In this document: positions 1 to 33,605 of the stretch, piece by piece
Layout: each line of letters begins with the position of its first letter
How positions within the stretch are numbered: the stretch's first letter is position 1
IMG/VR virus record: IMGVR_UViG_2541047807_000007
Strand: one strand, 5' to 3'
DNA length: 33,905 nt
Source of the DNA: a virus
Lineage: Duplodnaviria > Heunggongvirae > Uroviricota > Caudoviricetes
Translations under genes and position numbers: made by a program
Notes under the pieces: model-generated
Databases searched by the model: none
What the model was told of the DNA's origin: nothing
The model's input: the letters and a program-made list of their open reading frames with translations, nothing else

Positions 1-996
1 TTATGGACGCATTATGGACATTCCTGACACCGGGTTAAGAGTCACAGCATCTTGTAAGAAATCCGGTGCAAAGTGTGCGTAGGTCATAGTTTGCTGAATG
101 TTAGAATGACCCAGGATGCGCTGCAATGTGATTATGTTACCTCCATTCATTATAAAATGTGTGGCAAATGTATGCCTCAAAACATGCACTGCCTGTCCGT
201 CAGGTAAATCGGGTTTTACTTCCCTGAGAGCGTTGCGCACTTTGTAGTAACTGGCATTAAAAAGCCTGCCAGAATTTTTGGTTTTGATCCGTTTAATCAA
301 GTCCTGCGAAACGGGAATTGTCCTGCGCTTTCCGTTTTTGGTTTTCATAAACGTAACCATTTGGTTAATGATGTGTTCAGCTTTTAAATTAGACACTTCA
401 CTCCAGCGTCCACCAGTAGAAAGGCAGACCAGAGTCGTATTTAATTCATCACCATCAAGCATGGATAGCAGCCGCGTAATCTCTTCACTGGACAAAAAAG
501 CCATTTCCGTAACAGCTTCACGTAACCGCTTCACCTCACGGAACGGGTTGTGAGAGTGATATTCACCGGCGTCAATTAACTTGGTGAACATCCCGCTCAT
601 TATTGCCAGATGCCGATTTACGCTGGCTGGTTTTAGACCGTCGTTCATCATTACAACGCGATAATCAGTTATCGTTTTCTTTGTTAGCTGGTCCGCCCTG
701 GACACTCCCATCTCAGCAAATTTGGCAATTATTGTCGTCAAACGCCCCCGTTCAATATCTCCACGCTCATGTGATTTTCCGTGATATATCCACCATCTGC
801 CTAACAACTCTGTAAGAGTTCGGCGGTCGGCCGGCTTCTCCAACCACTCTTTGTTGTGGTAGTTAACCAGGACATGACGCTCGAATGCCTGGGCTTCACC
901 TTTAGTTTTAAATTTCCGCCTGATACGTTTTCCATCTGCACCCTGCGGCCTGACGTCCACTTCATAACGACCATCATCGAGCTTTTTAATAGACAT
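1..996 (-). CDS. int: Tyrosine recombinase, P2-type prophage integrase (331 aa)
   Basis: Full ORF with SD (GGAGGG) before the ATG; C-terminal R..H..RHT..Y-type integrase catalytic region (HVLRHTFATH, TYAHF); first gene at prophage edge, transcribed with the repressor as in P2. Confidence 0.9.
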   Translation of the reverse strand: MSIKKLDDGRYEVDVRPQGADGKRIRRKFKTKGEAQAFERHVLVNYHNKEWLEKPADRRTLTELLGRWWIYHGKSHERGDIERGRLTTIIAKFAEMGVSRADQLTKKTITDYRVVMMNDGLKPASVNRHLAIMSGMFTKLIDAGEYHSHNPFREVKRLREAVTEMAFLSSEEITRLLSMLDGDELNTTLVCLSTGGRWSEVSNLKAEHIINQMVTFMKTKNGKRRTIPVSQDLIKRIKTKNSGRLFNASYYKVRNALREVKPDLPDGQAVHVLRHTFATHFIMNGGNIITLQRILGHSNIQQTMTYAHFAPDFLQDAVTLNPVSGMSIMRP

Positions 997-7961: not shown

Positions 7962-9263
7962 ATGGAAAATATAAAGATTGATAAGTTTCTCACTATTCAA
8001 AAAGTTGATATTCCTCTTAAGAAAGTGAATATATTTATTGGGCCTCAGGCACAGGGGAAAAGTGTCATTGCAAAGCTAATAAAATATTTTAAAGATTATC
8101 CTATGGATATACTACGAGCTTCAACAGAGGGTAAAACTAAAAGAGATATATTGAAGGAGCAAAAGAATAAGTTTAGTAAAATTTTCCCTCAGCAGTATTG
8201 GGCTGATGATGAGTTTTTTATTGAGTATAGTAATAAGCACTATTGGGTGCGGATTACTAATCGAAAAAATAGCAAAGGGTCATTGAAAATAGACCTTTCT
8301 GAGAATTTAACGAAGACGATTGCTAAACTTCGTTTGATTGTACGAAAGGATTTAGATGAAAATATTGAGAATTCACTTGCAGAAAGCGTTACGAGAAGAC
8401 GTAAACGCGGAATTGAACATGAATTGCGAGTATGTCTTTCTCTAGGATTGTTTTCAGAACCAGAAACAAAGCTTGAAAGTGTTTTTTATATCCCCGCAGG
8501 GCGCTCTTTTTTTGCTAATTTGCAAAAAAATGTGTTTTCATTTTTATCCAGTAGTATAGAAATTGACTACTTTTTGACAGAGTTTGGTTCTCTGTATGAA
8601 CAAACAAAAAAATTATTTAACCAAGATTACATGATTAGGATGCTTAGGGGGGCTGTGCCTCAACATGTTAATAAACTTGTGGAGGAGTTGATTTGCGGAA
8701 AATATATAACAGAAAAGGGTGAGGATTTTATTCGTCATGCTGCTAAGAAGACGAATCTTAACAACTCGAGCTCAGGGCAGCAAGAAGCGTTACCAATGGC
8801 TTTAATGTTATCCTCATGGCCGTATTTACAGTCTGTGACTAGTAAGAGTTTTATTATTGAGGAGCCGGAGGCTCATCTGTTTCCTTCTGCCCAAGCAAAA
8901 GTTGTATCTTTAATAGCCTCAGCGTATAACCAAGCAGAAAGCTATTGTAGCTATACAATAACAACACATAGTCCATATATTCTAAGTGCCTTCAATAATT
9001 TGATTCAAGCAGGTAATGCATTAAAGTGTATTAAGGGCAAGAATAATACCGATATCGAACGCTTATATAAGCTTGTTCCAGAGTCTCAAATTATTGATTT
9101 TGATGATGTGACAGCTTATATGGTTAATGCTGGGAAAGTGACGGAAATACTGGATTCCGAACTAAATATATTAGATGCGAATGAAATAGATAGGATTTCC
9201 TCTATTTTTTCAGAGACTTTTGATGCATTGATTGATATCGAATATTCGGCTACTGTGAATTAG
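7962..9263 (+). CDS. OLD-like / AAA_21-type ABC ATPase (433 aa), no fused nuclease domain; cargo
   Basis: Walker A GPQAQGKS near the N-terminus, Q-loop-like YIPAGR, ABC signature-like SSGQQ, Walker B FIIEEPEAHLFP, H-loop TTHSP; SD AAGGAG; very AT-rich. Confidence 0.8.
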   Translation: MENIKIDKFLTIQKVDIPLKKVNIFIGPQAQGKSVIAKLIKYFKDYPMDILRASTEGKTKRDILKEQKNKFSKIFPQQYWADDEFFIEYSNKHYWVRITNRKNSKGSLKIDLSENLTKTIAKLRLIVRKDLDENIENSLAESVTRRRKRGIEHELRVCLSLGLFSEPETKLESVFYIPAGRSFFANLQKNVFSFLSSSIEIDYFLTEFGSLYEQTKKLFNQDYMIRMLRGAVPQHVNKLVEELICGKYITEKGEDFIRHAAKKTNLNNSSSGQQEALPMALMLSSWPYLQSVTSKSFIIEEPEAHLFPSAQAKVVSLIASAYNQAESYCSYTITTHSPYILSAFNNLIQAGNALKCIKGKNNTDIERLYKLVPESQIIDFDDVTAYMVNAGKVTEILDSELNILDANEIDRISSIFSETFDALIDIEYSATVN

Positions 9264-9271
9264 GTGATTGA

Positions 9272-9709
9272 ATGTGTAAAAATTGCAAAGGAAAAACAAA
9301 AAATAAAATCATTGTGCTATCTGATAAAGGAACATCAACGCAATTGTCAGTCACAAATGATAATGAGTTGGAAGTTGAGCATAAGTTAATAGATGGTTGC
9401 GCTATTGTTGTTGGAGAGCGGTGTGATCATTATTTGAAGATTTATAACAATCAGGATGTTTCACATCTTTTTGTTGAACTTAAAGGAAGTGATGTTGAAA
9501 AAGCTGTTAAACAGATAGTGACAACTTTAAAGTCAGGTGTGATTAATGTAGGTGCTAAAGAAAAAAAACATGGTGCTATTGTTAGCACTAGGAATCCGCT
9601 AAACTCAACAGAAACCAATAGGTTAAAGAAGAAAATTCTTTTGAGTGACGGAGTGAATTTGCATTTCTATAAAATGAAGGCGCAGCAAAAAATAACTTCT
9701 TTTACATGA
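9272..9709 (+). CDS. Hypothetical 145-aa Cys-containing partner of the ATPase (candidate effector)
   Basis: Starts 8 nt after the ATPase stop with SD AGGTGA; N-terminal CxxC (MCKNCKGK), C43/C51-DH, VELKGSD and LLSDG acidic motifs; same AT-rich composition as the ATPase. Confidence 0.65.
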   Translation: MCKNCKGKTKNKIIVLSDKGTSTQLSVTNDNELEVEHKLIDGCAIVVGERCDHYLKIYNNQDVSHLFVELKGSDVEKAVKQIVTTLKSGVINVGAKEKKHGAIVSTRNPLNSTETNRLKKKILLSDGVNLHFYKMKAQQKITSFT

Positions 9710-9812: not shown

Positions 9813-10832
9813 TCATAATGAATAAGTTCGAAAGCGAAATACATCTTCGCCAACCCAACAGTTAATTTCTTTACATCGCTCTTGGAGGAACGTTAGCTCG
9901 TTGCGTACAAAGACTTGTGCTGCTTTTGTTACATCTCCAAATCCTCCTGTGTTGTTGGGCATCATTCCTATCATTTGGGGAGGCACGCGATGAGCACTCA
10001 TTAGATCTTCAGCACTTGCTTTTTTGATATTAAAAAAATCGTCCTTCGTCGCCACTTCACTGAGCGGGATAATTTTAATGCCGTCGGCTTTCCCCTGTGG
10101 GGCATAGAGAAACAGATTTTTAAAATTGTTGCGGCCTTTCGACTTCACCATGTTTTCGCGAAGCATTTCGATATCGTTGCGGTCCTGCACGGCATCGGTG
10201 ACGTACATGATGTATCCGGCATGTGCGCCGTTTTCGTAATACTTGCGGCGGAACAGCGTGGCCGACTCATTCAGCCAGGCAGAATTAAGGGCGCTGAGAT
10301 ATTCCGGCAGACCGTACAGCTCCTGATTGATATCCGGCTCCAGCAGGTGAAACACGGAGCCGGGCGCGAAAGGTGTCGGCTCGTTAAAGGACGGCACCCA
10401 CCAGTAAACATCCTCTTCCACACCACGGCGGGTATATTTTGCCGGTGAGGTTTCCAGTCTGATGACCTTACCGGTGGTGCTGTAGCGCTTTTCCAGAAAC
10501 GCATTACCGAACACCAGAAAATCCAGCACAAAGCGGCTGAAATCCTGCTGGGAAAGCCACGGATGCGGGATAAATGTCGAGGCCAGAATATTGCGTTTGA
10601 CGTAAATCGGCGAGCTGTGATGCACGGCAGCACGCAGACTTTTTGCCAGGCCGGTAAAGCTGACCGGTGGCTCATACCATCTGCCGTTACTGATGCACTC
10701 GACGTAATCCAGAATGTCACGGCGGTCGAGTACCGGCACCGGCTCACCAAAGGTGAATGCCTCCATTTTCGGGGCGCTGGCGGTCATTTTTTTTGCCGCA
10801 GGTTGCGGTGTTTTCCCTTTTTTCTTACTCAT
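9813..10832 (-). CDS. Q: Portal (capsid) protein gpQ (339 aa)
   Basis: P2 order and size; ATGA overlap with the P stop; first gene inside cos on the leftward late operon. Confidence 0.9.
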   Translation of the reverse strand: MSKKKGKTPQPAAKKMTASAPKMEAFTFGEPVPVLDRRDILDYVECISNGRWYEPPVSFTGLAKSLRAAVHHSSPIYVKRNILASTFIPHPWLSQQDFSRFVLDFLVFGNAFLEKRYSTTGKVIRLETSPAKYTRRGVEEDVYWWVPSFNEPTPFAPGSVFHLLEPDINQELYGLPEYLSALNSAWLNESATLFRRKYYENGAHAGYIMYVTDAVQDRNDIEMLRENMVKSKGRNNFKNLFLYAPQGKADGIKIIPLSEVATKDDFFNIKKASAEDLMSAHRVPPQMIGMMPNNTGGFGDVTKAAQVFVRNELTFLQERCKEINCWVGEDVFRFRTYSL

Positions 10833-18978: not shown

Positions 18979-19008
18979 TTTTATCCAGGCAGAGGCTGAT
19001 GCGCAATT

Positions 19009-19043
19009 AAACATTGAGCGGCCATGCTGGTCGCTCAATGTTT
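19009..19043. terminator. 12-bp-stem hairpin (AAACATTGAGCG-N11-CGCTCAATGTTT) between convergent S and the cargo membrane gene; bidirectional terminator
   Basis: Perfect inverted repeat with A/T runs at the outer ends, in the 71-bp gap between two stop codons. Confidence 0.5.
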
Positions 19044-19049
19044 AGAGGT

Positions 19050-19835
19050 TTATGAATGATTTTTATTTGATGCTTTGTATTCTAAAACCTTCTTATTGGC
19101 GTAAAAGAATTTTGTATATGACAGGAATATAACCAGACCTGAAGTGAAATAGACGAGGGATAGTATTAATAATGCTTTTTTGTGACTGTTATTATCTTTA
19201 ATCTCCTGGCTTAACCATTCGGAGTCCTCCTCGTTTAGCTGTAAGAGCTTATTGCAGGCGATTTCAGGAAGTGTGTCTTTTATAAATACGTTTTGCAGTC
19301 TCTTGCAATCGGCAAGGCTATAAGTTTTATTAAATTCAACTGCTTTATTTTTGAAGGATAAAAGAACTTTGTCACTATAAACATAGTACATCATATTTTT
19401 ATATGGTATGCCTATGGCATCTCTTACTATAGCGGATTGTTTGTTGTGTATATAACATGCGAAGAGAATATAAATAATACTGGCCAGAATTACAATTATT
19501 GTTTTAATTATGTGTGGTGGTTTTGTTATGTCACCCCAGAAGCGAGTAAGGAAAAAATACGATGTTTTTAGTTTTCCATCAATCAGCCCCTGCTGTATCA
19601 TTCTCACATCTTCGATGCCTGATACATTGATTCCGTTAATTATTTTAAATAGTTGAATGTCGCGCCATTTTTTGTCGAGCATTTTTAACTTTCTGTCTGA
19701 ATACTCAAGATTGAAATGATGTGCAATAAACCTCATAAGATTACTTTTACCAAAGGTAACAAATGTTAATGCTATTAATAAAAATAGATACAAAGAGATA
19801 AACCACCACGCATTAGTCACATTATCACTGAACAT
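19050..19835 (-). CDS. Cargo integral membrane protein (261 aa, about 3 TM helices), AT-rich, antisense to the late operon
   Basis: SD GAGGAG before the ATG; hydrophobic segments near residues 10-30, 118-140 and 233-253; codon composition unlike the backbone. Confidence 0.7.
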   Translation of the reverse strand: MFSDNVTNAWWFISLYLFLLIALTFVTFGKSNLMRFIAHHFNLEYSDRKLKMLDKKWRDIQLFKIINGINVSGIEDVRMIQQGLIDGKLKTSYFFLTRFWGDITKPPHIIKTIIVILASIIYILFACYIHNKQSAIVRDAIGIPYKNMMYYVYSDKVLLSFKNKAVEFNKTYSLADCKRLQNVFIKDTLPEIACNKLLQLNEEDSEWLSQEIKDNNSHKKALLILSLVYFTSGLVIFLSYTKFFYANKKVLEYKASNKNHS

Positions 19836-19850
19836 TACGCTCTCCTCGAA

Positions 19851-19871
19851 TGTTGTATGGTCGTTCTACAA
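19851..19871. promoter_or_regulatory. Candidate late-promoter element TGTTGT-N12-CAA upstream of V
   Basis: Same motif as upstream of O and FI, but only about 50 bp before the V ATG, so the spacing to a transcription start is doubtful. Confidence 0.25.
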
Positions 19872-19918
19872 ATGAATCCAGATAGCATAACTTTTATATA
19901 TTGTGCAATCTCACACGC

Positions 19919-20554
19919 ATGAACACTCTCGCAAATATTCAGGAACTCGCGCGCGCACTGCGCAACATGATTCGCACCGGCATTATCGTCGAAACCGACC
20001 TTAACGCCGGTCGCTGCCGCGTGCAGACCGGCGGCATGTGCACCGACTGGCTTCAGTGGCTGACCCATCGCGCAGGACGTTCGCGCACATGGTGGGCACC
20101 TTCCGTGGGGGAACAGGTGCTGATTCTGGCCGTGGGTGGTGAACTCGACACGGCGTTCGTTCTGCCGGGGATTTATTCCGGCGATAACCCCTCGCCGTCT
20201 GTGTCGGCGGATGCCCTGCATATCCGTTTCCCTGACGGGGCGGTGATTGAATATGAACCCGAAACCAGTGCACTCACGGTAAGCGGAATTAAAACGGCCA
20301 GCGTGACGGCTTCTGATTCTGTTACTGCCACGGTGCCGGTGGTCATGGTGAAAGCATCAACCCGCGTCACCCTGGACACCCCGGAGGTGGTCTGCACCAA
20401 CAGGCTGATTACCGGCACGCTGGAAGTGCAGAAGGGCGGGACGATGCGCGGCAACATTGAACACACCGGCGGTGAACTCTCATCAAACGGTAAGGTACTG
20501 CATACCCATAAACACCCCGGCGACAGCGGCGGCACAACCGGGAGTCCTCTATGA
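19919..20554 (+). CDS. V: Baseplate spike/assembly protein gpV (211 aa from first ATG; track ORF starts at a TTG at 19901)
   Basis: 211 aa as P2 gpV; ATGA overlap with W downstream. Confidence 0.85.
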   Translation: MNTLANIQELARALRNMIRTGIIVETDLNAGRCRVQTGGMCTDWLQWLTHRAGRSRTWWAPSVGEQVLILAVGGELDTAFVLPGIYSGDNPSPSVSADALHIRFPDGAVIEYEPETSALTVSGIKTASVTASDSVTATVPVVMVKASTRVTLDTPEVVCTNRLITGTLEVQKGGTMRGNIEHTGGELSSNGKVLHTHKHPGDSGGTTGSPL

Positions 20555-25858: not shown

Positions 25859-26349
25859 TTTACTGATTCCTCGTGATACAGGCTTATACCTGCCCATTAG
25901 TTATATGGCTCCCGTGCTGCTTCGTAAACGTTCAATAATCAAACAATTGACACTGATCATAAAACCAGTTAGAGGATTTGACTCTAGCTTGGATATATGA
26001 TGATGCCACCCCCTTTATATTGTTGTCGGTAACTCACAGACATTGAACTCATGCTGGTGAGTGAAAGGCTACATAAACGCCCAACATTTAAACTGCCCTC
26101 AGCAGTGTTCGCGGAGCAATATACAGGCTTCGTATTCAATCCTTGCCCTACGAGAAACCCTAGCCGTTGCCTCGTTTTCAAGTGTCAGGAAGTTCTTTGT
26201 CAGACCTCATACAGTCTTGGGCTGGGTGAGGTGCATGGGGGAAGTTGAAGCCTTAACTGTTGAGGTAAATCGAACTATAAGTGTGCAATTTTTCAAGCTC
26301 GGCGCTATTTTAGTATTGAAAACAATTAGTACGCCCCCAAGGACAACTC

Positions 26350-27042
26350 ATGATCGAATTTATCGCAGAGCATATAAACACAGTAAGTACACTTATCTCC
26401 GCTTTGGCAGCATTGCTAACAGCAGTTGCTACATTTTTCTTGTGGAGAGTAACAAGGCTATTAGCAGACGAGACAAAAAGGATGGTTGACGCATCAGTTC
26501 AACCTCATGTCGTTGTGACTCTTGAACCAAATTCTTGGGCTGCTTTTTATTTTGATATCAATATTGCTAATACCGGAAATGCCCCAGCCTATGATATTGA
26601 AGTCGGATTTAATCCCCCACTGGTTAATGCAGAACATAGAAAAAATAAAGGTATACCATTTAGCAAGGTTAGCGTATTGAAAAACGGCCATTCCCTCAAC
26701 AGCAGTCTTTGTAAGTATGACCAGATTAAAGATCAAGTTTATTCTGTTAGTATTAGCTGGTCTAAACAGCCGGGCTCAACTGAAAGAGAGCGGAATGAGT
26801 ATTCTTATGATATGGCTTCTTTCGAGGGGGTTAGCTACTTAGGTGCAAGGAGTCCAATGACACAGATAGCTGAGCAGATGAAAAAGATTAGAGAAGACTG
26901 GAGGCCGATTTCCCAGGGAAGCAAAAAAATTAAAACAGACAACTATAATTCAAGTGACAGAGCCGAGGAACAACGAGCACGTGAAGAGTGGTATCAGACC
27001 ACTGCAAAGAAATGGGATAAAGAAAAGCAAAAAGATAACTAA
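26350..27042 (+). CDS. Cargo membrane-anchored protein (230 aa): N-terminal TM helix, central domain, highly charged K/E-rich C-terminal tail
   Basis: SD AAGGA; hydrophobic segment at residues 12-32 followed by RVTRLL (positive-inside); occupies the P2 Z/fun position between G and FI. Confidence 0.7.
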   Translation: MIEFIAEHINTVSTLISALAALLTAVATFFLWRVTRLLADETKRMVDASVQPHVVVTLEPNSWAAFYFDINIANTGNAPAYDIEVGFNPPLVNAEHRKNKGIPFSKVSVLKNGHSLNSSLCKYDQIKDQVYSVSISWSKQPGSTERERNEYSYDMASFEGVSYLGARSPMTQIAEQMKKIREDWRPISQGSKKIKTDNYNSSDRAEEQRAREEWYQTTAKKWDKEKQKDN

Positions 27043-31962: not shown

Positions 31963-32442
31963 ATGATGCTCGCGTTAGGTATGTTTGTTTTTATGCGCCA
32001 GACGCTGCCACACCAGACCATGCAGCGTGAATCAGATTATCGCTGGCCGTCAAATTCCCGTATCGGCAAACGGGATGCCTTTCAGTTTCTCGGTGCGGGT
32101 GAGGAAAACATCACGCTTGCCGGTGTGCTTTATCCTGAACTGACCGGCGGAAAGCTGACGATGACCACGCTCAGACTGATGGCAGAGGAAGGCCGGGCGT
32201 GGCCGTTGCTGGATGGCACCGGCATGATTTACGGCATGTATGTCATCAGCAAGGTGAGTGAAACAGGGAGTATTTTCTTTGCAGACGGCACACCCCGGAA
32301 AATTGATTTTACGCTGTCGCTCACCCGCGTTGATGAATCACTGGCCGCGCTTTATGGCGATATCGGTAAACAGGCGGAATCGCTCATCGGTAAGGCTGGC
32401 AGTATGGCGACTAAATTCACGGATATGACGGGGGCGGGATAA
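31963..32442 (+). CDS. U: Tail protein gpU (159 aa)
   Basis: Length and position of P2 gpU. Confidence 0.88.
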   Translation: MMLALGMFVFMRQTLPHQTMQRESDYRWPSNSRIGKRDAFQFLGAGEENITLAGVLYPELTGGKLTMTTLRLMAEEGRAWPLLDGTGMIYGMYVISKVSETGSIFFADGTPRKIDFTLSLTRVDESLAALYGDIGKQAESLIGKAGSMATKFTDMTGAG

Positions 32443-33605
32443 TGCTGGATGCACTGACATTTGATGCAGGCAGTACGCTGACGCCGGATTACATGCTGAT
32501 GCTCGACAGTAGGGATATTACCGGCAATATCAGCGACCGTCTGATGAGTATGACCCTGACGGATAACCGGGGCTTTGAGGCTGACCAGCTTGATATTGAA
32601 CTGAACGATGCCGACGGGCAGGTCGGGCTGCCGGTTCGTGGCGCTGTCCTGACGGTGTATATCGGCTGGAAAGGTTTTGCCCTGGTATGCAAAGGGAAAT
32701 TTACCGTTGATGAGGTTGAACACCGGGGCGCACCGGATGTGGTCACCATCCGCGCCCGGAGTGCAGATTTTCGCGGGACGCTCAATTCCCGCCGGGAAGG
32801 CTCCTGGCATGACACCACGCTCGGTGCGATTGTTGAGGCGATAGCCACCCGTAACAGGCTGGAAGCCAGTGTCGCTCCGTCACTGGCCGGAATTAAAATC
32901 CCGCACATCGACCAGTCGCAGGAGTCCGATGTGAAATTCCTGACCCGTCTTGCTGAACGCAACGGCGGCGAGGTGTCGGTAAAAATGGGAAAACTGCTGT
33001 TTCTCAAAGCGGGGCAGGGGGTGACGGCCAGCGGTAAAAAAATCCCGCAGATCACCATCACCCGCAGCGACGGTGACCGTCATCATTTTGCGATTGCTGA
33101 CCGTGGAGCCTATACCGGCGTAACGGCAAAGTGGCTTCACACCAAAGACCCGAAGCCGCAAAAGCAGAAGGTAAAACTGAAACGCAAAAAGAAAGAGAAA
33201 CACCTGCGCGCACTGGAGCACCCGAAAGCGAAACCAGTCACGCAGAAGAAAGCGCCAAAAGTACCGGAAGCGCGCGAAGGTGAATACATGGCCGGTGAGG
33301 CTGACAACGTTTTTGCCCTGACCACGGTATATGCCACGAAAGCGCAGGCCATGCGCGCCGCTCAGGCGAAGTGGGATAAGCTGCAACGGGGCGTGGCGGA
33401 GTTCTCCATCAGCCTGGCTACCGGTCGGGCAGATATTTACACGGAAACACCGGTCAAAGTGTCAGGCTTTAAGCGCGTCATAGACGAGCAGGACTGGACA
33501 ATCACTAAGGTGACACATTTTCTGAATAATAGCGGCTTCACGACGTCCTTAGAGCTTGAGGTCAGGCTTTCTGATGTGGAGTACGAAACAGAAGATGATG
33601 AGTGA
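32442..33605 (+). CDS. D: Tail protein gpD (387 aa)
   Basis: Length and position of P2 gpD; overlaps the U stop. Confidence 0.88.
   Translation: MLDALTFDAGSTLTPDYMLMLDSRDITGNISDRLMSMTLTDNRGFEADQLDIELNDADGQVGLPVRGAVLTVYIGWKGFALVCKGKFTVDEVEHRGAPDVVTIRARSADFRGTLNSRREGSWHDTTLGAIVEAIATRNRLEASVAPSLAGIKIPHIDQSQESDVKFLTRLAERNGGEVSVKMGKLLFLKAGQGVTASGKKIPQITITRSDGDRHHFAIADRGAYTGVTAKWLHTKDPKPQKQKVKLKRKKKEKHLRALEHPKAKPVTQKKAPKVPEAREGEYMAGEADNVFALTTVYATKAQAMRAAQAKWDKLQRGVAEFSISLATGRADIYTETPVKVSGFKRVIDEQDWTITKVTHFLNNSGFTTSLELEVRLSDVEYETEDDE

What the first reader, a model, noticed from the sequence alone, without database searches (positions are those of the whole stretch)
19009..19918. AT-rich 3-TM membrane protein gene inserted antisense between tail-completion gene S and baseplate gene V
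A 261-aa minus-strand ORF with three predicted TM helices, a strong SD and strongly foreign base composition sits inside the otherwise co-directional late operon, insulated from S by a 12-bp-stem hairpin. Small membrane proteins at such moron positions often mediate superinfection exclusion or abortive infection. I recognise no family.
Basis: partly seen in the sequence, partly recalled or inferred. Interest (0 to 1): 0.6.

Follow-up and report, generated by a model that had tools for sequence, protein, structure and literature searches.

The report
Phage P2 orf30 membrane-protein gene
The flagged gene is a variant of orf30, a long-catalogued but still uncharacterised non-essential gene of phage P2. 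It encodes an inner-membrane protein that P2-type prophages across enteric bacteria carry in the same slot and that hosts keep after the prophage decays, so it probably serves the lysogen, perhaps by excluding other phages.

Summary
A 261-codon minus-strand ORF (19050-19835, 32% GC against about 57% in the flanks) lies between tail gene S and baseplate gene V. It has three hydrophobic helices, a GAGGAG ribosome-binding site and a strong hairpin on the S side.

It is not new. It is phage P2 orf30 (88% amino-acid identity, PHROG 2407), annotated "nonessential" with unknown function. It lies between two late operons, not inside one: the hairpin is P2's annotated O-operon terminator, and the Ogr-activated pV promoter lies between orf30 and V.

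New here:
- Orf30 belongs to a family of about 250-residue proteins in Enterobacterales, distantly linked to Pfam DUF6216.
- In Escherichia, Serratia, Yersinia and Pectobacterium it occupies the same S|V slot, head-to-head with V.
- It diverges much faster than its neighbours.
- It stays intact in decayed prophages and stands alone at a P2 integration site in Enterobacter cloacae.
- In Pantoea it follows int in the repressor-int gene string.

These points suggest a lysogen-expressed envelope protein, most plausibly for phage exclusion. No homology, fold match or experiment shows that function. The gene is a known object with an open function, and interest is moderate.

The parts
19050..19835 (-). 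orf30 coding sequence (261 aa), an allele of phage P2 orf30
   Evidence: ORF list. 88% aa identity to P2 Orf30 across the full length, in the same slot. PHROG 2407, E 5e-145. dN/dS 0.29-0.54.
19749..19811 (-). TM1 (aa 9-29). The N-terminal tail (aa 1-8) is predicted periplasmic.
   Evidence: Hydropathy. The N tail has essentially no K/R in 26 family members. This is the most variable segment among close alleles (pN/pS 1.15).
19524..19676 (-). Core of loop 1 (aa 54-104), predicted cytoplasmic and the most conserved part of the family. Motif: D.QLF(K/R)..NG(I/V)NV....DA..I....G.L...F.F..FFG..G
   Evidence: Alignments A3 and A4. Mean loop charge is +12.7/-7.6. pN/pS 0.36.
19446..19520 (-). TM2 (aa 106-130)
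   Evidence: Hydropathy. AF2 helix 109-134 with pLDDT about 90.
19179..19445 (-). Loop 2 (aa 131-219), predicted periplasmic domain. It has four beta strands plus helices and a conserved Cys pair (C177, C194).
   Evidence: AF2 secondary structure. The Cys pair is present in 26/26 family members and the loop has net charge about 0. pN/pS 0.32.
19113..19178 (-). TM3 (aa 220-241), followed by a Lys-rich cytoplasmic tail (aa 242-261; 19053-19112)
   Evidence: Hydropathy. C-tail mean charge is +4.5/-2.3.
19842..19847 (-). Shine-Dalgarno GAGGAG, 6 nt upstream of the ATG
   Evidence: Read from the sequence. AAGGAG is conserved in the Serratia homologues.
19008..19044 (.). Hairpin between the convergent S and orf30 3' ends. 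This is P2's annotated putative rho-independent terminator of the O operon and probably also terminates orf30.
   Evidence: Identical to the P2 feature at 9397-9433. dG is -28.4 and -21.6 kcal/mol on the two strands. The simple terminator scan did not call it because only 3 U follow the stem.
19850..19877 (+). Ogr/activator-binding site of the late promoter pV, by homology to the P2 annotation. It lies within what must be the orf30 5' leader or promoter region.
   Evidence: P2 misc_feature 10239-10266. 26/28 identical in the window.
19836..19918 (.). 83-bp divergent control region between orf30 and V. It contains pV. No consensus sigma-70 promoter for orf30 was found.
   Evidence: It is unrelated to the 66-bp S-V spacer of the empty-site phage Wphi.
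18526..18978 (+). Gene S (tail completion), last gene of the O operon; left boundary of the slot
   Evidence: PHROG 26. P2 annotation.
19919..20554 (+). Gene V (baseplate spike), first gene of the V operon; right boundary of the slot
   Evidence: PHROGs 6142 and 11. P2 annotation. The correct ATG is at 19919.

Best explanation
Shown: the ORF is the P2 orf30 gene, an AT-rich, non-essential accessory cassette. The cassette replaces the whole S-V spacer of P2-type phages and lies between the O-operon terminator and the Ogr-dependent pV promoter. Inferred from sequence: it encodes an inner-membrane protein of about 30 kDa with three TM helices. The predicted topology is N-terminus in the periplasm and C-terminus in the cytoplasm. 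A conserved, basic cytoplasmic loop of about 75 residues sits between TM1 and TM2. A periplasmic beta/alpha domain of about 90 residues sits between TM2 and TM3 and is probably held by a C177-C194 disulfide. Inferred from comparative genomics: the protein works for the lysogen, not for virion assembly or lysis. It is probably made from the prophage, and RNA polymerase recruited by Ogr to the overlapping pV promoter may shut it off late in lytic growth. My best guess at the mechanism is a single-component envelope block to incoming phage. The variable periplasmic domain and TM1 would meet a component of the infecting phage's DNA-delivery apparatus, or the host factor that apparatus uses, at the inner membrane. 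The conserved cytoplasmic loop would provide the common structural or effector part. The result would be superinfection exclusion at or after adsorption, at the DNA-entry step. The confidence given refers to this functional claim. The identity as P2 orf30 is essentially certain.
For: Identity. Accessory status: the gene is 'nonessential' in the P2 record. It is present in only 461-464 of about 1585 E. coli genomes that carry the S-V junction, and most of the rest have an empty site. Other unrelated single genes can occupy the slot. Same slot over deep divergence: homologues in Serratia, Yersinia and Pectobacterium P2-like prophages sit antisense and head-to-head with V. Fast evolution: 24% identity between E. 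coli and Serratia, against V 63-67%, R 57%, W 54% and S 43%. Among close alleles dN/dS is 0.29-0.54, against 0.09-0.22 for V and 0.02-0.06 for S. Retention by hosts: the gene is intact where R, S and V are frameshifted or truncated, in S. odorifera, S. rubidaea and locus L017. E. coli B's defective prophage also keeps it. In Enterobacter cloacae it is a lone gene directly after the CyaR sRNA between yegQ and yegS, with 23 similar places; this is the site where the E. coli STEC2017-197 P2-like prophage carrying an identical orf30 is integrated. A tandem duplication occurs in L017. Link to lysogeny: in a Pantoea 186-like prophage a clear family member (profile E 7e-61) lies on the same strand as cI-yebY-int, and its ATG overlaps the int stop by 8 nt. 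Topology. The two loops are the most constrained parts and TM1 the least.
Against: There is no experimental phenotype. P2's known exclusion phenotypes are all assigned to old, tin and fun, and papers that mention orf30 call it unknown. The two systematic P2 defence-hotspot studies do not treat this slot. No PADLOC model matches any of the 26 family members at a meaningful E-value. There is no fold relative in PDB or BFVD, and the AF2 model has only moderate confidence (pLDDT 77, pTM 0.55). No recognisable sigma-70 promoter lies upstream in the window, so expression in the lysogen is unproven for this copy. The promoter-occlusion idea is inference only. Retention in decayed prophages and fast evolution fit any host-beneficial envelope function, not specifically phage exclusion.
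Confidence: 0.35

Rival explanations
1. Abortive-infection effector. Orf30 sits idle in the inner membrane and, on sensing infection, depolarises or permeabilises the membrane and kills the cell before phage release.
For: It is a polytopic membrane protein in a prophage accessory slot. Membrane effectors are common in Abi systems (general knowledge; also discussed in PMC9122126). The conserved cytoplasmic loop could act as a sensor.
Against: It is a single gene with no sensor partner in the slot. There is no PADLOC match. It is stably kept as a lone chromosomal gene in E. cloacae. No pore-forming or channel fold was detected.
Confidence: 0.12
2. A lysogenic-conversion envelope protein unrelated to phage defence. 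Examples would be immunity to tailocins or colicins, modulation of an LPS or envelope machine, stress tolerance or colonisation fitness.
For: The same comparative evidence shows host benefit without saying which benefit: retention in decayed prophages, the lone E. cloacae gene, and a periplasmic disulfide-bonded domain. Three-TM inner-membrane immunity proteins exist for pore-forming colicins (general knowledge).
Against: There is no enzymatic domain and no homology to any such protein. The family was found only in or next to P2/186-like prophages and their remnants, and never on plasmids, where colicin-type immunity genes usually travel.
Confidence: 0.25
3. A lytic-cycle accessory protein that tunes lysis timing, tail or baseplate assembly at the membrane, or DNA ejection. 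It would be expressed with the late genes via the shared Ogr-controlled region.
For: It is always head-to-head with V and shares the 83-bp Ogr-controlled region. P2 encodes other non-essential membrane proteins that affect lysis timing, such as lysA.
Against: It is absent from about two thirds of otherwise near-identical E. coli P2-like prophages and from Wphi. It is antisense to all late genes. It stays intact where the neighbouring tail genes are pseudogenes, and stands alone in E. cloacae. In Pantoea it follows int in the repressor-int gene string. The Ogr site lies 3 nt upstream of the SD and 14 nt from the ATG, which is the wrong geometry for activating orf30.
Confidence: 0.08
4. A neutral or selfish passenger. 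The AT-rich, H-NS-silenced cassette would persist by hitch-hiking with the pV promoter it carries, without a function of its own.
For: The cassette carries the pV promoter and the O terminator, so a clean deletion could be deleterious to the phage. No own promoter was detected. dN/dS is relatively high.
Against: dN/dS is well below 1 and lowest in the two soluble loops. The frame is intact in 461 E. coli genomes. The family is conserved down to 22% identity with invariant Gly and Cys positions. The gene is retained where there is no V gene left to serve.
Confidence: 0.08

Closest known systems
Phage P2 orf30 (AF063097 / NC_001895; AAD03281.1), PHROG 2407
   Same: Same gene. It is 88% identical over all 261 residues. 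It sits in the same slot between S and V on the opposite strand, with an identical terminator hairpin and a near-identical pV control region.
   Different: Only allelic differences, concentrated in the N terminus and TM1. The rest of the window's prophage carries different cargo at the other P2 hotspots.
Pfam DUF6216 (PF19723), an uncharacterised family
   Same: Length of about 250-270 residues. Distant family members align collinearly with the model (for example residues 17-226 to model positions 21-242). An Erwinia protein annotated DUF6216 scores E 2.8e-44 against a profile built from the Orf30 family.
   Different: The window protein itself does not reach the DUF6216 threshold, or even E <= 1. 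Only 5 of 26 members hit it, and the hits seen individually are below the gathering score. DUF6216 has no known function, so the link gives no mechanism.
Single-protein inner-membrane superinfection-exclusion proteins (T4 Imm, P22 SieA, HK97 gp15; recalled from general knowledge)
   Same: Small prophage- or phage-encoded inner-membrane proteins with no enzymatic domain, encoded as stand-alone accessory genes. The proposed mode of action is the same: blocking genome entry.
   Different: No sequence or fold similarity was detected. Orf30 is larger, with two folded loops of 75-90 residues. No exclusion phenotype is known.
P2 accessory exclusion genes old, tin and fun(Z), and the A-Q and Z/fun defence hotspots of P2-like phages
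   Same: AT-rich, non-essential, horizontally exchanged cargo at fixed slots between conserved P2 genes. The S-V position is listed with them as a site of foreign genes (PMC3091744; PMC2771037).
   Different: old, tin and fun have defined phenotypes and their slots hold hundreds of different systems (PMC9122126; PMC9519451). The S|V slot holds mostly one protein family across genera, and that family has no phenotype.
Lambda RexB (membrane partner of the RexAB abortive-infection system, in the cI operon; recalled from general knowledge)
   Same: A polytopic inner-membrane protein encoded by a prophage. The Pantoea family member lies in the repressor-int gene string, as rexB lies in the cI operon.
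   Different: RexB needs RexA and has four TM helices and no large loops. Orf30 has no partner gene and no sequence similarity to it.

Membership tests
Phage P2 Orf30 / PHROG 2407 | Full-length sequence match to the family profile | tested here: met
   phrog_2407 E 5.2e-145, residues 1-261 to profile positions 1-261. All 26 aligned relatives hit it. 88% identity to AAD03281.1.
Phage P2 Orf30 / PHROG 2407 | Position between S and V of a P2-like genome, on the opposite strand | tested here: met
Pfam DUF6216 (PF19723) | Score at or above the gathering threshold (27.3 bits) | tested here: not met
   The window protein has no hit at E <= 1. The best individually inspected relative scored 24.3 bits (P0035). 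The link is only transitive, through P0035 and P0102, which carry a precomputed PF19723 label, and through profile E 1e-44 to 1e-61.
Integral inner-membrane protein, N-out/C-in, 3 TM | Three hydrophobic helices of about 20 residues, positive-inside charge bias and periplasmic cysteines | tested here: met
   This is a prediction only. No dedicated topology predictor and no experiment were available.
Superinfection-exclusion protein | Expression from the prophage blocks infection at or before genome entry without cell death | not testable with these tools
   No phenotype data were found in the literature searched.
Known anti-phage defence systems (PADLOC-DB v2) | Match to a defence-protein model | tested here: not met
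   0 families for the query. Only isolated chance-level hits, one member each, for the 26 relatives.
RexAB-type two-component Abi | Membrane protein encoded next to a cytoplasmic sensor partner | tested here: not met
   The slot holds a single gene in E. coli, Serratia and Yersinia.
Holin / antiholin | Small (usually under 150 aa) TM protein within the lysis cassette, co-transcribed with the endolysin | tested here: not met
   The protein is 261 aa with two large loops. It is antisense and lies outside the Y-K-lysA-lysB-lysC cassette.
Intrinsic (rho-independent) terminator | GC-rich stem-loop followed directly by a U tract | tested here: inconclusive
   The hairpin is strong on both strands and is identical to P2's annotated putative terminator. 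Only UUU follows the stem on either strand, and the consensus scan did not call it.

The most novel reading that the evidence does not exclude
Orf30/DUF6216-like proteins are a previously unrecognised family of envelope-acting exclusion or lysogenic-conversion proteins restricted to P2/186-type prophages and their remnants. They would define a third, family-dedicated accessory slot (S|V) of P2-like phages. Hosts would repeatedly domesticate them, and they would be expressed from the prophage and silenced when Ogr fires the overlapping pV promoter. Their rapidly evolving TM1 and periplasmic domain would track the DNA-delivery machinery of competing phages.
Probability: 0.3. Interest if true: 0.6.

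Novelty: already known. Interest (0 to 1): 0.38.

Why it matters
Going by the literature retrieved here and my own recollection, orf30 is the one classical AT-rich accessory gene of the model phage P2 (alongside old, tin and fun) that still has no assigned function. It sits in about 8.5% of complete E. coli genomes, including E. coli B laboratory strains. The comparative pattern found here turns "unknown ORF" into a specific hypothesis that is cheap to test. The pattern has four parts: the same slot across genera, fast evolution, survival in decayed prophages, and a copy following int in the repressor-int string. If the protein blocks phage entry, it would add a new single-gene exclusion family. 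It would also add a third defence position in P2-like phages, one that the recent hotspot surveys (PMC9122126, PMC9519451) did not cover. If it has no such role, it is simply a known hypothetical gene.

Tried and rejected
- **Family and defence libraries.** Pfam on the query gave only a weak TM-only hit to DUF6535. PADLOC gave nothing.
- **Solved structures by sequence.** A profile search of PDB sequences gave only chance hits to an NDH subunit.
- **Related loci.** The search for related loci with the family alignment failed because no stretch was conserved enough.
- **Promoter search.** No sigma-70 consensus was found for orf30 within 300 nt upstream, only a poor GTGAGA-N19-TATGCT. The Serratia homologues show TGnTACAAT or TGnTAATAT extended -10-like motifs. 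The E. coli counterpart, TGCTATCTG, is weak, so I do not claim a promoter.
- **RNA families.** Rfam found nothing in the window.
- **Plasmids.** No homologues.
- **Literature.** No paper assigns a function. The Christie and Calendar P2 review is not held.
- **Rejected readings.** A spurious ORF (conservation, dN/dS). A holin (size, position). A two-component Abi (no partner gene). A recent E. coli-specific insertion (same slot in four genera at about 24% identity).

Full report
**1. The observation**

The window is a P2-like prophage that runs from int (1-996, minus strand) to gene D (32442-33605). At 19050-19835 on the minus strand there is a 261-codon ORF.

- Its GC content is 0.32, against 0.55-0.60 for R, S, V and W. 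An open frame of this length at this composition has a chance probability of about 1e-9.
- Three hydrophobic segments lie at about aa 9-29, 106-130 and 220-241.
- A GAGGAG ribosome-binding site sits 6 nt before the ATG.
- A strong hairpin lies at 19008-19044, with folding energies of -28.4 and -21.6 kcal/mol on the two strands and z about -4.7 and -4.1.

V starts at the ATG at 19919, not at the TTG that the ORF list reports. The 128-codon ORF at 19835-20221 (minus strand) lies antisense inside V and was not examined further.

**2. What it is**

Megablast of 18900-20000 matches phage P2 across its full length at 94.4%. It matches other Peduovirus isolates at 89-97%. In the P2 record the gene is orf30, "nonessential". 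The proteins are 88% identical, and PHROG 2407 (unknown function) matches end to end at E 5e-145.

S is the last gene of the O operon, and the hairpin is the annotated putative rho-independent terminator of that operon. An activator (Ogr) binding site and the pV promoter lie between orf30 and V, and V begins a separate operon. In the window the terminator is identical to P2's and the 86-nt control region is 82/86 identical. The gene therefore sits between two late operons, not inside one.

The empty-site phage Wphi has an unrelated 66-bp S-V spacer. The cassette thus spans exactly from the S stop to the V start, about 940 bp, and carries pV with it.

Papers that mention orf30 call it unknown and list its position among sites of horizontally acquired genes (PMC2771037, PMC3091744, PMC6823313). 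The recent P2 defence-hotspot studies cover only the A-Q and Z/fun loci.

**3. Distribution in E. coli**

Of 5426 complete E. coli genomes, 1585 carry the S-V junction. Of these, 460 carry it with orf30, and most of the rest have the empty 1155-bp arrangement. A search with orf30 alone finds 464 genomes, 461 of them full length, all on chromosomes.

A few genomes carry other cargo in the slot:
- an antisense, AT-rich, soluble 247-aa protein (L003);
- a sense-strand 246-aa protein with weak HNH-like hits (L004), and a truncated form of it (L005).

E. coli B's defective P2-like prophage has lost the region from Q to S but keeps orf30 intact.

**4. The wider family**

A word-indexed search found only five close clusters. 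An exhaustive HMMER search of 1.84 billion representative proteins found 41 clusters at E <= 1e-3. Many are full-length proteins of about 250 aa at 22-33% identity. They come from Escherichia, Enterobacter, Serratia, Yersinia and Pectobacterium, and all are annotated hypothetical.

The alignment shows the same three TM helices in all members. It also shows:
- a highly conserved loop 1: D.QLF(K/R)..NG(I/V)NV....DA..I....G.L...F.F..FFG..G;
- invariant residues G68, G87, C194 and I212;
- a Cys pair in loop 2 in 26 of 26 sequences.

Five of 26 members hit Pfam DUF6216 below threshold but collinearly. An Erwinia protein annotated DUF6216 and its Pantoea relatives score E 1e-44 to 1e-61 against a profile of the family. 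Orf30 is therefore a divergent relative of DUF6216, which is itself uncharacterised.

**5. Genomic context of the relatives**

This is the informative part.
- In Serratia nevei and S. ureilytica, Yersinia enterocolitica and Pectobacterium, the homologue lies in an intact P2-like prophage. It occupies the same S|V slot, on the opposite strand, head-to-head with V. It is AT-rich in the six homologues measured, from Serratia, Enterobacter cloacae, Pantoea, Erwinia and locus L017 (0.30-0.38).
- Between E. coli and Serratia the protein is 24% identical. V is 63-67%, R 57%, W 54% and S 43% identical.
- In S. odorifera, R, S and V are frameshifted but the homologue is intact. In S. rubidaea only fragments of S, W and J remain beside an intact homologue. 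In locus L017 a J fragment, W and V are followed by two tandem paralogues and an S fragment.
- In Enterobacter cloacae the homologue stands alone, directly after the CyaR sRNA and between yegQ and yegS. There is no trace of S, V, W, J or R, and 23 similar places were found. This is the site where the E. coli STEC2017-197 P2-like prophage, whose orf30 is 100% identical to the window's, is integrated.
- In a Pantoea 186-like prophage a family member lies immediately after int. It is on the same strand as cI-yebY-int, and its ATG overlaps the int stop codon by 8 nt. In Erwinia the DUF6216 copy lies beside a decayed prophage at the corresponding chromosomal site.
- No homologue occurs on plasmids. 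Among 50,697 phage records, only 21 P2-type records carry one.

**6. Selection**

Among six alleles, dN/dS is 0.29-0.54. It is 0.09-0.22 for V and 0.02-0.06 for S in the same genomes. By domain, pN/pS is 1.15 for the N terminus and TM1, 0.36 for loop 1, 0.66 for TM2, 0.32 for loop 2, and 0.68 for TM3 plus the tail. The gene is under purifying selection, so it is a real protein. It evolves several-fold faster than its neighbours, and the two soluble loops are its most constrained parts.

**7. Protein architecture (inferred)**

Across the family the charge pattern is as follows:
- the N tail has no K/R;
- loop 1 carries +12.7/-7.6;
- loop 2 is neutral (+12.0/-12.2) and holds exactly two Cys on average;
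- the C tail carries +4.5/-2.3.

This fits an N-out/C-in topology with loop 1 in the cytoplasm and loop 2 in the periplasm, where a C177-C194 disulfide could form.

AF2 with 15 sequences (pLDDT 77, pTM 0.55) gives three long TM helices. Loop 1 is helical. Loop 2 has a four-stranded sheet (residues 141-173) followed by helices. No fold search returned a meaningful relative.

**8. Mechanism**

Shown: identity, position, accessory status, family, contexts and selection pattern.

Inferred: the protein benefits the lysogen. The argument rests on four points.
- It is kept when the phage genes around it decay.
- It is a lone chromosomal gene in E. cloacae.
- It is sometimes duplicated.
- In Pantoea it follows int in the repressor-int gene string.

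A virion or lysis role does not fit these facts.

The most likely specific function is exclusion of incoming phage at the inner membrane. The fast-evolving TM1 and periplasmic parts would face the invader, and a conserved cytoplasmic loop would complete the protein. I put this at about 0.35. Other envelope-related lysogenic conversion is nearly as likely. Abortive infection is less likely because there is no partner gene.

Regulation is unresolved. I found no consensus promoter. Whatever promoter exists must lie within or beyond the pV region, because the Ogr site starts 14 nt from the orf30 ATG. Activation of pV would therefore probably occlude it. That step is inference.

**9. Verdict**

The feature is real, but it is a known gene (P2 orf30) of unknown function. 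Interest is moderate. A specialist would not be surprised by the gene, but the family-wide pattern makes a long-standing unknown directly testable.

Noticed in passing
L016:7769-8765 (Enterobacter cloacae GCA_034107775.1): A lone orf30-family gene (254 aa, GC 0.36 against 0.57 for the locus) lies directly after the CyaR sRNA, between yegQ and yegS. No other phage gene is left, and 23 similar places were found. It looks like a domesticated remnant at a P2-type integration site.
   Followed up: partly
L022:5759-8777 (Pantoea sp. S-LA4): A family member sits at the end of a 186-like prophage on the same strand as cI-yebY-int. Its ATG overlaps the int stop by 8 nt, so the family uses a second accessory position that is tied to the lysogeny operon.
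   Followed up: partly
L017:9001-10658: Two tandem paralogues of the family (256 and 252 aa) lie in the S|V slot of a decayed P2-like remnant.
   Followed up: partly
window 18979-19918 versus L002:880-945 (phage Wphi): The orf30 cassette replaces the whole S-V spacer, including the pV promoter. The empty-site spacer (66 bp) is unrelated and contains a GC-rich hairpin (GCCGCCGG...CCGGCGGC). A similar hairpin lies next to the V start in the Serratia loci. How pV is organised in empty-site phages was not examined.
   Followed up: no
window 7962-9709 (+): The A-Q (old/tin) hotspot of this prophage holds a 433-aa AAA_15/AAA_21 ATPase (E 5e-21) followed by a 145-aa ORF with no Pfam hit. This is probably a defence system. 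It differs from the cargo of strain STEC2017-197, whose S-orf30-V segment is 100% identical to the window.
   Followed up: partly
window 26061-27042 (+): ORFs of 142 and 230 aa lie in the region between the tail-fibre assembly gene and the sheath gene (the Z/fun hotspot). They have no Pfam hits.
   Followed up: partly
L003:966-1709 (-), L004:771-1511 (+), L005:771-1277 (+): Alternative cargo occupies the S|V slot in a few E. coli genomes. One is an antisense, AT-rich, soluble 247-aa protein with no family. Another is a sense-strand 246-aa protein with weak HNH-like hits, possibly matching the 741-bp ORF16 reported for phage R18C in PMC6823313. The third is a truncated copy of the second.
   Followed up: partly
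L027:7800-9440 (Pectobacterium brasiliense): Here the S|V slot is expanded. An ORF6N-domain gene and two small ORFs lie between the orf30 homologue and S.
   Followed up: no
L020 (E. coli B derivative AS19, NZ_CP027430): A defective P2-like prophage has a deletion fusing Q and S fragments but retains an intact orf30. An ABC-three-component system sits at its A-Q hotspot. Public E. coli B omics data could show whether orf30 is expressed.
   Followed up: no
PMC6823313 (text): The paper calls P2 ORF30 'short, 261-bp-long'. The gene is 786 bp and the protein 261 aa.
   Followed up: yes
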